From Parcubacteria group bacterium M6-OD1-3 (GTDB taxonomy: Bacteria; Patescibacteriota; Minisyncoccia; Moranbacterales; UBA9337), in contig LSNR01000002.1 in the NCBI GenBank assembly GCA_003056165.1, forward strand, positions 2,726 through 66,725: 64,000 nucleotides of DNA, written 5' to 3'. A program made the position numbers and the translations under genes. Shown here piece by piece: positions 23,546-25,645 of the stretch. The first letter of the stretch is position 1. Each line of letters starts with the position of its first letter. The notes below the pieces were generated by a model that was not told the origin of the DNA, searched no databases, and saw only the letters and a list, made by a program, of their open reading frames with translations.

Positions 23546-25645
23546 AAGGAGGTGATCCATCCACAGCTTCCGCTACGGATGCCTTGTTACGACTTCGTCC
23601 CTATCACCAGCCCCACCGTTGTTCCTGCTATGACACAAGACCTTCGGGTGTTGCCGGCTCTCTTGACGTGACGGGCGGTGAGTACAAGATCCGGGAACGT
23701 ATTCACCGGGACATGGCTGATTCCCGATTACTAGTGATTCCGGCTTCATGGAGTCGAGTTGCAGACTCCAATCCGAACTGAGACCAACTTTTTGGGATTA
23801 GCTCCACCTCGCGGTTTCGCAACCCTCTGTATTGGCCATTGTAGCACGTGTGTAGCCCAGGGCGTCAAAGGGCCATGCTGATCTGACGTCATCCCCTCCT
23901 TCCTCCCAGACTTTAATGCGCTTCGCTTTAATTTTGAATTATGAATTTTTAATTTCAATTGAATTTTTTAAATGAATTAATTTTTAATTCCGAAATATTA
24001 ACTTTTAAGTTTTAAGCTTTACTTCAAAAAATTATGTCATTAAAACATTAGTTCATTCAATCAAAATTTAAAATTGGAAATTCAGAATTGTACACGAAGT
24101 GTACTAAAGTCTGGGCAGTCTCGCGTGACATATATAACACACGACAGGGGTTGCGCTCGTTACCCCACTTAAGGGAACACCTTACGGCACGAGCTGACGA
24201 CGACCATGCAGCGCCTGCTTAGCGTTCTCGAAGACGCTTCTATCTCTAGAAGCCACAGCTAAGTTTCAAGCCCTGGTGAGGTGCCTCGCTTAATATCGAA
24301 TTAAACCACATGCTCCACCACTTGTGCGGATCCCCGTCTATTCCTTTGAGTTTTAAGCTTGCGCTCGTACTTCCCAGGCGGCATATTTAACGCGTTAGCT
24401 ACGACACTAGGAGGGTCGATACTCCTAACATCTAATATGCATCGTTTACGGCGTGGACTACGGGGGTATCTAATCCCCTTCGCTCCCCACGCTTTCGCAT
24501 CTCAGCGTCAGAAAAGTGCCAATTGAATGCCTTCGCCTTTGGTGTTCCTCATGATATCAACGCATTTCACTACTACACCATGAATTCCATCAATCTCTCA
24601 CTTTCTCTAGATATACCGTTTCAAATGCAGTTTCCGAGTTGGGCTCGGAGATTTAACATCTGACTAGTATATCCGCCTACATGCGCTTTACGCCCAATAA
24701 ATCCGGATAACGCTTGGGGTCTCTGTATTACCGCTACTGCTGGCACAGAGTTAGTAACCCCTTATTCAACTGATACCGTCAATTTCGTACCTTTTTAAAT
24801 TCAATTTATTAAATTCAAAATTATTCAGATAATTAGTTTTGCGGACGAGTGGTAATAATATACTCATACTCGTCCTTGTTTTTTAATTTTCATTATATAA
24901 TAGTTATATTAAAAGAATTAAAGTAATACAATTTTATTATATCTTTAATATCATCTATCTCCAAAGGACACGTCACTTTGAACCTAATAGAATTCATATG
25001 ATAATTTATATCCTCCATCTGCACACCTTCAATTTCTTCGATTTGCGAGACTAAATTTTCAATGTCCACCATATTGCTATTTTCGTCTGCTGGCATTATC
25101 CAATATGTTTTTTCTTCTCCCATTGTTACCTCCCTTCTCTCTTGTCTTCAAGGAAACATCGACTTTTCATACACAAAAACAAAACCAATTATCCGAACAC
25201 AATTTCAAATTAAATTCAAAAAGGTACGAACTTCTTCTCAGTTAAAAGCAGTTTACGACCCTAGGGCCTTCATCCTGCACGCGGCGTCGCTCCATCAGGC
25301 TTTCGCCCATTGTGGAATATTCTCGACTGCAGCCTCCCGTAGGAGTTTGGACAGTGTCTCAGTTCCAATGTTGGGGATCACGCTCTCACGCCCCCTACCC
25401 GTCATAGCCTTGGTGAGCAATTACCTCACCAACAAGCTGATAGGACGCAGGCCACTCCTTAAGCGATAAATCTTTACTCCGTAGAGCACATCGTGTATTA
25501 TTCCGGATTTCTCCGGGTTATTCACGACTTAAGGGTATGTTCCTACGCGTTACTAACCCGTCTGCCGAGGGTCTAAACCCTCTCGACTTGCATGCCTTAT
25601 CCACGCCGCCAGCGTTCATCCTGAGCCAGGATCAAACTCTCAATA
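23546..25645 (-). rRNA. rrs: 16S rRNA gene, about 2.1 kb, with two large insertions (about 23912-24108 and 24792-25222)
   Basis: 5' end 'agagtttgatcctggctcag' (RC at 25621-25640), '530 loop' gtgccagcagtagcggtaatac, 3' end 'ggatcacctcctttct'; no 23S/5S in window. Confidence 0.9.
24893..25123 (-). CDS. 76-aa acidic ORF inside the 16S h17 insertion, same strand as the rRNA
   Basis: Strong SD 'gagagaagggaggtaacaATG' read directly; no LAGLIDADG or other motif recognised. Confidence 0.4.
   Translation of the reverse strand: MGEEKTYWIMPADENSNMVDIENLVSQIEEIEGVQMEDINYHMNSIRFKVTCPLEIDDIKDIIKLYYFNSFNITII

What the first reader, a model, noticed from the sequence alone, without database searches (positions are those of the whole stretch)
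24893..25123. Protein-coding ORF with a textbook Shine-Dalgarno inside the 16S h17 insertion
gagagaagGGAGGTaacaATG precedes a 76-aa acidic ORF on the rRNA strand. It is followed by an 8-bp-stem hairpin (ggacgagt…actcgtcc). It is far too small and lacks the motifs to be a LAGLIDADG/HNH homing endonuclease, which is the usual cargo of rRNA insertions. It may be a novel insertion-encoded protein, such as a maturase or excision factor, or a selfish passenger.
Basis: seen in the sequence. Interest (0 to 1): 0.6.

Follow-up and report, generated by a model that had tools for sequence, protein, structure and literature searches.

The report
Orphan small gene inside 16S insertion
A Moranbacteria (CPR) 16S rRNA gene carries a 438-base hairpin insertion in helix 17, and its tip looks like a small expression cassette (ribosome-binding site, 76-codon gene for a compact acidic protein, closing hairpin); the gene looks real by several statistical tests but has no relative anywhere, so its function is unknown.

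Summary
The ORF (24893-25123, minus strand) lies on the rRNA strand inside a 438-nt insertion in the h17 loop of a full-length 16S gene. It follows GGGAGGT at a 5-nt spacing and is followed by an 8-bp-stem hairpin.

The insertion matches no intron model. It is a hairpin-type intervening sequence: a ~50-bp basal stem carrying an unstructured 288-nt leader-plus-ORF module.

Evidence that the ORF is a gene:
- An ORF of at least 76 aa with an upstream GGAGG appeared in 1 of 20,000 shuffles.
- Only the ORF's own frame has host-like codon usage.
- AlphaFold2 gives a compact beta-alpha-beta-beta-alpha-beta fold (pTM 0.63, against 0.22 for an antisense control).

Evidence against: it is a strict ORFan. 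Searches of about 15 billion proteins, phages, plasmids, JGI metagenomes and 119 related 16S loci returned only itself. Conservation therefore cannot be tested, and there is no expression evidence.

About 10 of 119 relatives have h17 hairpin insertions. One carries a GIY-YIG gene, one another orphan ORF, and the rest are ORF-less.

Most likely this is a passenger gene in an RNase III-type IVS, co-transcribed with 16S. Nothing supports a maturase or excision role.

The parts
23545..25647 (-). Host 16S rRNA gene (2103 nt, full length, with two insertions)
   Evidence: Rfam RF00177, 1340 bits, model 1-1533
24787..25224 (-). 438-nt insertion (hairpin-type intervening sequence) in the apical loop of h17. 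Boundaries are good to about +/-3 nt.
   Evidence: cmscan alignment shows *[438]* in the h17 loop. The closest relatives without the insertion have only GAACAA-TTAT-TGAGC here. No intron or other Rfam family matches at E<=10.
25179..25230 (-). 5' arm of the ~50-bp basal stem (TTCGTACCTTTTTGAATTTAATTTGAAATTGTGTTCGGATAATTGGTTTTG)
   Evidence: MFE and partition function give pairing probability ~1. The whole element folds at z = -5.8. Three compensatory U-A<->C-G changes separate it from the basal helix of L010 and L007.
24784..24842 (-). 3' arm of the basal stem (GCAAAACTAATTATCTGAATAATTTTGAATTTAATAAATTGAATTTAAAAAGGTACGAA)
25124..25178 (-). 55-nt leader of the cassette. It contains the Shine-Dalgarno GGGAGGT at 25134-25128, 5 nt before the ATG.
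   Evidence: Sequence. The SD-to-start region is predicted to be mostly unpaired (P unpaired 0.54-0.61, against 0.37 for the whole element). The anti-SD CACCUCCUUU is intact at the 16S 3' end.
24893..25123 (-). ORF of 76 aa (MGEEKTYWIMPADENS...FNITII) with TAA stop; acidic (pI 4.13)
   Evidence: Codon log-odds is +0.151 per codon in frame and negative in the other five frames. AF2 single-sequence model: pLDDT 75.6, pTM 0.63, beta-alpha-beta-beta-alpha-beta. The database's gene caller called it on 4 contigs.
24843..24875 (-). 3' hairpin with an 8-bp G+C-rich stem, 17 nt after the stop codon and directly abutting the 3' arm of the basal stem. No U-tract follows on the rRNA strand. On the opposite strand it is followed by TTGTTTTTT.
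   Evidence: dG -13.9 kcal/mol, z = -5.0. The terminator scan did not call it on either strand.

Best explanation
The insertion is a hairpin-type intervening sequence (IVS) in the h17 loop of the single 16S gene of a Candidatus Moranbacteria (CPR/Patescibacteria) organism. A ~50-bp basal stem holds, at its apex, a small mRNA-like cassette: an unstructured 55-nt leader with a consensus Shine-Dalgarno, a 76-codon ORF and a stable 3' hairpin.

The cassette has no promoter of its own, so it is transcribed as part of the pre-16S rRNA from the rRNA promoter. By analogy with the RNase III-processed IVSs of other bacteria, the long basal duplex is probably cut by host RNase III (inferred). That would release a ~330-430-nt RNA with structured ends. 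Ribosomes can load on the exposed SD of this RNA, or of the nascent precursor, and make a 9-kDa acidic protein with a ferredoxin-like beta-alpha-beta-beta-alpha-beta fold (inferred).

The protein is an orphan with no assignable activity. The most likely reading is a passenger gene that rides in the IVS and uses the rRNA promoter, not a factor needed for excision or mobility.

Shown: the anatomy, the location, the non-random ORF+SD combination, the coding-like composition, the foldability, and the sporadic distribution of h17 hairpin insertions with different cargoes in relatives. Inferred: RNase III excision, translation, and the passenger role.
For: Location and anatomy:
- The insertion lies in the h17 loop.
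- The basal stem of ~50 bp is predicted with pairing probability ~1, and the whole element folds at z = -5.8.
- The 288-nt leader+ORF is no more structured than shuffles (z = +0.29). The ORF-less 200-nt h40 insertion in the same gene is all hairpin (z = -8.4). The apex of the h17 element therefore behaves like mRNA, not structural RNA.

Translation signals:
- ORF>=76 aa plus upstream GGAGG occurred in 1 of 20,000 shuffles.
- In this window, the other five GGAGG + ATG (5-7 nt) combinations that open an ORF of at least 50 codons are three long ORFs of 200-380 aa and two unexamined 50-51-aa ORFs.
- The SD is predicted accessible.

Coding character:
- The in-frame codon score of +0.151 falls within the range of true genes (6.5th percentile). 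Only 1.65% of wrong-frame windows reach it, and the other five frames are negative. Purine at codon position 1 is 0.74, against 0.68 in host genes.
- AF2 without an alignment gives pLDDT 75.6 and pTM 0.63 as a compact domain; all five models score 65-76. An 84-aa antisense open frame from the same DNA gives pTM 0.22 and unpacked helices. Strand beta1 uses residues 5-13, which fits the SD-led Met1 and not Met10.

Context:
- No promoter-like site lies upstream of the ORF inside the insertion.
- In L007 a bona fide gene (GIY-YIG, Pfam E = 1.5e-14) sits on the rRNA strand at the same h17 site. Its hairpin has the same basal helix as that of this organism's closest relative, L010.
- The insertion is present or absent among 16S genes 94-96% identical, which marks it as a discrete element.
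- Precedent: the Coxiella 428-nt 23S IVS carries an ORF and is excised by RNase III (PMC4990558). Tsurumaki et al. suspected RNase III-type IVSs among CPR rRNA insertions (PMC11270868).
Against: - No homologue was found in any of these searches, each of which returned only itself: 5.8 billion protein clusters, exhaustive HMMER over 1.84 billion representatives, the tblastn-confirmed scan of JGI metagenomes, phages and plasmids, and 119 related 16S loci. Purifying selection therefore cannot be shown.
- All four copies are identical in the ORF.
- The codon score is at the low end for host genes.
- ORF length alone is only modestly unusual (3.5-4% of shuffles).
- Most host genes do not use an SD (about 6-10 of 39), so the 'textbook' SD is atypical for this genome.
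- The best-studied analogue, the Coxiella S23p ORF, is apparently not translated in vivo (PMC4990558).
- There is only one AF2 control.
- There are no transcript, ribosome-profiling or peptide data. Excision of the IVS is untested.
Confidence: 0.55

Rival explanations
1. The ORF is not expressed as protein. The insertion is simply a hairpin IVS or expansion segment of h17, and the open frame with its SD-like purine run is a decaying remnant of former cargo or a fortuitous feature. This would parallel the Coxiella IVS ORF.
For: - Strict ORFan.
- The other h17 and h40 hairpin insertions in relatives are almost all ORF-less.
- The closest relative, L010, has only a 100-nt ORF-less hairpin with a homologous basal helix.
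- Coxiella S23p is not made in vivo and is decaying (PMC4990558).
- ORF length alone has p ~0.04.
- The codon score is at the 6.5th percentile of real genes.
Against: - The joint ORF+GGAGG probability is ~5e-5.
- Only the ORF's own frame is coding-like.
- The fold prediction is compact and confident, unlike the antisense control.
- The apical module lacks RNA structure, so RNA-level selection does not explain the intact 231-nt frame in 28.6% G+C DNA.
Confidence: 0.3
2. The protein serves the element itself, as a maturase, excision or ligation helper, or as a much-reduced mobility (homing) factor.
For: - rRNA insertions in CPR commonly encode homing endonucleases (PMC11270868).
- A GIY-YIG gene occupies the same h17 site in L007.
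- L007 and L010, whose 16S genes are only 88-89% identical, share an identical 13-bp basal helix. This hints that these hairpin elements move.
Against: - No nuclease, maturase or RNA-binding family matches.
- No intron fold is present that would need a maturase.
- The protein is strongly acidic (pI 4.13).
- No other copy of the element or the ORF occurs in the 64-kb window.
Confidence: 0.07
3. The protein is a host-beneficial translation or ribosome-associated factor whose expression is coupled to rRNA synthesis by its placement inside the 16S precursor. Candidates are an EF-1beta-like, bS6-like or ACT-like regulatory domain.
For: - A weak Pfam match to EF1_GNE (E = 0.0083, 16.7 bits).
- Co-transcription with rRNA would give growth-rate-coupled expression.
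Against: - The Pfam score is below the family cut-off (20.8).
- The gene is absent from all relatives, including those 94-96% identical in 16S. A core function would not be confined to one species.
Confidence: 0.05
4. Assembly chimera: the ORF-bearing segment does not really lie inside this organism's 16S gene.
For: - 16S genes are notorious assembly breakpoints.
- Three short contigs break at the same positions, 24093 and 25287.
Against: - Four assemblies carry the identical junctions.
- Contig VAPM010077810.1 runs continuously from the h40 insertion through the h17 insertion into the unique upstream gene.
- The insertion's two ends form a perfect helix that sits exactly at the h17 apex, where relatives also carry hairpin insertions.
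Confidence: 0.02

Closest known systems
RNase III-processed intervening sequences of bacterial rRNA that carry an ORF (Coxiella burnetii and Leptospira 23S IVS with the S23p / 23S_rRNA_IVP protein, Pfam PF05635)
   Same: - A ~430-nt element at the apex of an rRNA helix (428 nt in Coxiella, 438 nt here).
- A long basal duplex.
- An ORF on the rRNA sense strand, with no intron structure.
- Sporadic distribution, regarded as a selfish element (PMC4990558, PMC11270868).
   Different: - It lies in 16S h17, not 23S h45 or h9.
- The ORF is unrelated to PF05635 (no Pfam hit). Its predicted fold is alpha/beta, whereas S23p is a four-helix bundle (from my own knowledge).
- It has a consensus SD with ideal spacing, whereas the Coxiella ORF lacks a functional RBS and is apparently untranslated.
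- RNase III cleavage is untested here.
CPR rRNA-gene insertion sequences with homing-endonuclease ORFs (LAGLIDADG in group I/II introns; GIY-YIG in non-intron insertions; Tsurumaki et al. 2024, PMC11270868)
   Same: - The same clade.
- The same phenomenon: an ORF-bearing insertion in a single-copy rRNA gene.
- A relative (L007) has a GIY-YIG ORF at exactly this h17 site.
   Different: - No intron fold.
- No endonuclease motif or family.
- At 76 aa it is far shorter than the typical 180-210 aa.
- That study annotated ORFs only by Pfam, so ORFs of this kind would have been counted as 'no ORF / uncharacterized'.
Small stand-alone ferredoxin-like (beta-alpha-beta-beta-alpha-beta) domains such as ACT-domain proteins, CheA P2, MzrA, HMA domains and bS6
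   Different: Sequence identity is <=19% among the listed matches, and no sequence-family match was found. No ligand-binding or metal-binding motif was identified. This is a fold-level resemblance only.
Peptides encoded inside rRNA genes (E. coli 23S 'E-peptide'; mitochondrial humanin and MOTS-c) - from my own knowledge
   Same: A coding sequence embedded in an rRNA transcript.
   Different: Those peptides lie within the mature rRNA sequence and are 5-24 aa long. Here a full domain-sized ORF sits in a dispensable insertion.

Membership tests
Group I / group II intron | Conserved catalytic RNA core recognisable by the Rfam covariance models | tested here: not met
   cmscan of 24780-25230 at E<=10 returned only chance snoRNA and atoC hits. 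Nothing reached the gathering threshold.
Homing endonuclease cargo (LAGLIDADG, HNH, GIY-YIG) | Catalytic domain detectable by Pfam or other profile libraries | tested here: not met
23S_rRNA_IVP / S23p (PF05635) | Match to PF05635 | tested here: not met
   No hit in Pfam at E<=10.
RNase III-type rRNA intervening sequence (IVS) | Sits at the apex of a variable rRNA helix and can be deleted without touching the conserved core | tested here: met
   It lies in the h17 loop. Relatives 94-96% identical in 16S have a 4-5-nt loop at this position.
RNase III-type rRNA intervening sequence (IVS) | Long (>20 bp) basal double-stranded stem formed by the two ends | tested here: met
   A ~50-bp stem with pairing probability ~1. 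Three compensatory changes separate it from L010 and L007. This is a prediction, not a probing result.
RNase III-type rRNA intervening sequence (IVS) | Cleaved out by RNase III and absent from mature rRNA | not testable with these tools
   No transcript data are available. Testing needs RNA-seq end mapping or an in vitro RNase III assay.
RNase III-type rRNA intervening sequence (IVS) | Sporadic phylogenetic distribution | tested here: met
   10 of 119 related loci have an h17 insertion, scattered over 16S identities of 81-96%.
Expressed protein-coding gene | Conservation under purifying selection in relatives | tested here: inconclusive
   No homologue exists to compare. The four available copies are identical.
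Expressed protein-coding gene | Translation initiation signal, coding-like composition and a foldable product | tested here: met
   SD and codon statistics; AF2 model against control.
Expressed protein-coding gene | Direct evidence of translation | not testable with these tools
   Needs Ribo-seq or proteomics.
ACT domain / EF1_GNE (fold-level leads) | Score above the Pfam family threshold | tested here: not met
   EF1_GNE scored 16.7 bits against a cut-off of 20.8. No ACT family was listed. The structural similarity is generic.

The most novel reading that the evidence does not exclude
Hairpin IVSs at the h17 apex of Moranbacteria 16S genes may act as landing pads for small protein-gene cassettes. 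So far three cargoes are seen: a GIY-YIG gene, a 72-aa orphan and this 76-aa orphan. These would be expressed by hitch-hiking on the cell's strongest promoter and released as mRNAs by rRNA processing. Under this reading, the 76-aa acidic ferredoxin-like protein is a genuinely translated, previously unseen protein family whose level is hard-wired to ribosome synthesis. It might act on the ribosome, on translation factors or on the host-symbiont interface.
Probability: 0.15. Interest if true: 0.6.

Novelty: new variant of a known kind. Interest (0 to 1): 0.35.

Why it matters
ORFs inside CPR rRNA insertions have so far been catalogued only when they match Pfam, chiefly homing endonucleases and the 23S IVS protein. 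This case shows a non-intron hairpin insertion in 16S h17 whose apex has all the marks of a translatable gene for an unrelated, foldable orphan protein.

If it is translated, it would be a clean example of a bacterial protein expressed from within a 16S rRNA precursor. It would also suggest that surveys which annotate insertion ORFs only by Pfam can overlook cargo of this kind.

The practical consequences are modest. The protein has no relatives, is confined to one uncultured species, and nothing yet indicates a function.

Tried and rejected
**Homologue searches that found only the query itself**
- Word-indexed search of 5.8 billion clusters.
- Exhaustive phmmer over 1.84 billion representatives.
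- Back-translated scan of JGI metagenomes.
- tblastn against phages and plasmids.
- PDB sequences.
- tblastn and blastn against 119 Moranbacteria-type 16S loci.

**Family libraries**
- Pfam, PHROGs, NCBIfam and PADLOC gave only sub-threshold chance-level hits: EF1_GNE E = 0.008, phrog_29520 E = 0.013, a CARF model E = 0.01. I rejected these as assignments.

**Fold searches**
- BFVD gave nothing at E<=1e-3.
- The AFDB50 library was not available.

**Structural and element hypotheses**
- Intron hypothesis rejected.
- Internal promoter: none lies upstream of the ORF.
- The 3' hairpin is not a canonical terminator on the rRNA strand, because no U-tract follows it. The scan tool called no terminator on either strand.
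- MITE-like multi-copy element: no second copy of the arms or the cargo occurs in the 64-kb window.
- Homology between this insertion and those of L010 and L007 beyond the 13-bp basal helix: none found.

**Tests that could not be done**
- dN/dS or strain polymorphism: impossible. The only three differences from contig VAPM010077810.1 lie in the upstream leader, not in the rRNA or the ORF.

**Other**
- The L084 cargo ORF was searched as a possible family and is also an ORFan.
- The exact-sequence lookup of the 67-aa version found no contig. The 76-aa version found three.
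Full report
**Observation**

Rfam finds one full-length bacterial SSU rRNA on the minus strand at 23545-25647 (1340 bits, model 1-1533). The gene is 2103 nt long because of two insertions. One is 438 nt in the apical loop of h17 (model ~458; window ~24787-25224). The other is 200 nt in the h40 loop (~23910-24109).

On the rRNA strand, the h17 insertion reads gagagaagGGAGGTaacaATG. The ATG at 25123 opens a 76-codon ORF that ends at TAA 24895-24893. The product is acidic, with pI 4.13 and 15 D+E against 5 K+R. Seventeen nt after the stop lies the hairpin GGACGAGT...ACTCGTCC (24875-24843; dG -13.9 kcal/mol, z = -5.0).

The identical sequence occurs on three contigs from three separate NCBI metagenome assemblies. 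One of these runs on into the unique upstream gene, so a chimera is very unlikely.

**Is it more than chance?**

In dinucleotide-preserving shuffles of the 438 nt:
- An ORF of at least 76 aa on either strand appears in 3.5-4% of shuffles.
- A sense-strand ATG ORF of that length appears in 0.2%.
- An ORF of at least 76 aa preceded by GGAGG appears in 1 of 20,000.

Across the whole window there are 81 GGAGG pentamers. In the other five cases where GGAGG is followed 5-7 nt later by an ATG that opens an ORF of at least 50 codons, three are long ORFs of 200-380 aa and two are 50-51-aa ORFs I did not examine.

I built a codon-usage log-odds model from 39 long ORFs of the window:
- The ORF scores +0.151 per codon in frame and is negative in the other five frames.
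- That score is the 6.5th percentile of true 76-codon gene windows.
- Only 1.65% of wrong-frame windows reach it.

The ORF is therefore coding-like, at the low end for this genome.

**Anatomy of the insertion**

RNA folding puts the two ends of the insertion into a ~50-bp stem (25230-25179 with 24842-24784). The stem is interrupted by one small internal loop and one bulge, and pairing probabilities are near 1. The whole element folds at z = -5.8. The 3' hairpin abuts the 3' arm directly.

The 288-nt leader+ORF at the apex is no more structured than its shuffles (z = +0.29). The SD-to-start region is predicted to be mostly unpaired (0.54-0.61, against 0.37 overall). The 200-nt h40 insertion in the same gene is a single long hairpin with no ORF (z = -8.4). 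The h17 element is therefore a hairpin of the same general kind, carrying an mRNA-like module at its tip.

- No group I or II intron, or any other Rfam family, matches even at E<=10.
- No promoter-like site lies upstream of the ORF within the insertion.
- The hairpin is not followed by a U-tract on the rRNA strand, so it would not terminate 16S transcription.

**The protein**

Pfam, PHROGs, NCBIfam, PADLOC and PDB sequence searches give nothing above threshold. The best hit is EF1_GNE at 16.7 bits against a cut-off of 20.8.

AlphaFold2 without an alignment predicts a compact beta-alpha-beta-beta-alpha-beta domain (pLDDT 75.6, pTM 0.63; the five models score 65-76). As a control I folded an 84-aa antisense open frame from the same DNA. 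It gives pLDDT 62 and pTM 0.22, with three unpacked helices.

**Relatives**

The ORF is a strict ORFan. Each of these searches returned only itself:
- 5.8 billion protein clusters.
- Exhaustive HMMER over 1.84 billion representatives.
- A tblastn-confirmed scan of JGI metagenomes.
- Phages and plasmids.

I then fetched related 16S genes using the lineage-typical 515-region signature ACTAACTNNGTGCCAGCAGTAGCGGTAATAC. This returned 119 loci, mostly labelled Candidatus Moranbacteria/Moraniibacteriota. Neither the ORF (tblastn) nor the insertion (blastn) has a match in them.

About 108 of these loci have no h17 insertion. Ten have one, of 49-568 nt. All ten are A/T-rich stem-loops.
- The nearest relatives are L010 (95.6% 16S identity), with a 100-nt ORF-less hairpin, and L061 and L121 (94.6%), with none. 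In the latter two the h17 apex is just GAACAA-TTAT-TGAGC.
- The basal helix here is TTCGTACCTTTTT/AAAAAGGTACGAA. In L010 and L007 it is CCCGCACCTTTT/AAAAGGTGCGGG. The difference is three compensatory U-A<->C-G pairs, so the helix is homologous and maintained as RNA.
- Beyond that helix the insertions do not align.
- L007 and L010 share the identical basal helix although their 16S genes are only 88-89% identical. This hints at horizontal spread.

Two relatives carry sense-strand ORFs at the apex. L007 has an 82-aa GIY-YIG protein (PF01541, E = 1.5e-14). L084 has a 72-aa ORF that is itself an ORFan.

Across all 62 insertions of at least 90 nt in these loci, the intron-type sites carry LAGLIDADG ORFs. 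The hairpin-type sites (h17 and h40) are otherwise ORF-less.

**Host context**

Only about 6-10 of 39 long ORFs in the window have a GGAGG or GGAG upstream. The rest have A/T-rich leaders. The SD-led ORFs I scanned include accessory-type genes: a reductase, an MFS transporter, a hydrolase and a histidine phosphatase. Nearly all the LAGLIDADG ORFs in relatives' rRNA introns lack an SD.

The perfect SD here is thus atypical for the lineage. It fits either a foreign origin of the cassette or a need for strong internal initiation on a precursor rRNA. The anti-SD is intact at the 16S 3' end.

**Interpretation**

The best-supported reading (about 0.55) is a hairpin-type IVS carrying a passenger gene. 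It would be co-transcribed with 16S. By analogy with the RNase III-processed IVSs of other bacteria, including the 428-nt ORF-bearing Coxiella 23S IVS (PMC4990558), host RNase III probably releases it at the basal duplex. It would then be translated from the exposed SD. Tsurumaki et al. already suspected such IVSs among the uncharacterised CPR insertions, but annotated ORFs only through Pfam (PMC11270868).

Excision and translation are inferences. Nothing supports a maturase or excision role: there is no intron to mature, the protein is acidic, and no nuclease or RNA-binding family matches.

The main rival (about 0.3) is that the ORF is not translated and is a remnant or accident. The reasons are its orphan status, the ORF-less homologous hairpin in the closest relative, and the Coxiella precedent of an untranslated IVS ORF. 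Minor rivals are an element-serving factor, a ribosome-linked host factor, and an assembly chimera.

**Novelty**

This is a new variant of a known kind: an rRNA IVS with an embedded ORF. It differs in site (16S h17), in cargo (an unrelated orphan alpha/beta domain) and in having a consensus ribosome-binding site. Interest is moderate to low (0.35), because the key claim, translation, is untested and the protein is confined to one uncultured species.

Noticed in passing
window 23910-24109 (-): A second insertion in the same 16S gene: 200 nt in the h40 loop. It folds as one long A/T-rich hairpin (z = -8.4), has no ORF, and its arms contain GAATTT/AAATTC-type repeats like those in the h17 stem. 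In the related loci, 18 of the 62 insertions found map to this site and 10 more to the adjacent alignment bin.
   Followed up: partly
window 26143-26211 (best on - strand): A G+C-rich hairpin with a 14-bp stem (GACAACCUGGGAC...GUCCCGGGUUGUC; z = -5.4). It lies in the ~1-kb non-coding stretch upstream of the 16S gene (25648-26709). Two of the only three differences from contig VAPM010077810.1 fall inside it (26150, 26181). No Rfam family matches at E<=1.
   Followed up: partly
window 53273-53305, 53757-53781, 53989-54013: Three copies of a near-perfect palindrome, ATGGAGGCC(TT)GCCTCCAT, at both ends of and inside the ORF 53309-54010. Their nature is not examined; they could be a repeated hairpin or terminator element.
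   Followed up: no
whole window (39 long ORFs): Most genes have A/T-rich leaders without a Shine-Dalgarno, although the 16S 3' end keeps CACCUCCUUU. The minority with GGAGG includes accessory-type genes (NAD_binding_4 reductase, MFS transporter, hydrolase, histidine phosphatase).
   Followed up: partly
whole window: No 23S or 5S rRNA gene lies next to the 16S gene. Only two tRNAs are found (55501-55585 and 61046-61118), so the rRNA genes appear unlinked.
   Followed up: no
L007 ~1345-1623 (-); L084 ~4513-5082 (-): At the same h17 site, L007 carries an 82-aa GIY-YIG gene whose stop codon lies in the basal helix. L084 carries a 568-nt insertion with a 72-aa ORF (MTEKKYFGLGEMQL...) that is also an ORFan. 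That ORF is seen on 16 contigs from several sources.
   Followed up: partly
L007 and L010, h17 insertions: The two organisms have 16S genes only 88-89% identical, yet they share an identical 13-bp basal helix (TCCCGCACCTTTT/AAAAGGTGCGGGA) around unrelated apical sequences. This suggests the hairpin elements spread horizontally or exchange their tips.
   Followed up: partly
window 24093 and 25287: Three independent metagenome contigs end at exactly 24093, inside the h40 hairpin. Two start at 25287, in a conserved 16S stretch. These look like assembly-graph breakpoints caused by the inverted repeat and by conserved rRNA sequence.
   Followed up: no
window 24843-24892 (+ strand reading): Read on the strand opposite to the rRNA, the 3' hairpin is followed by TTGTTTTTTAATTTT. 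That is terminator-like for antisense transcription. The scan tool did not call it, and its significance is unknown.
   Followed up: partly
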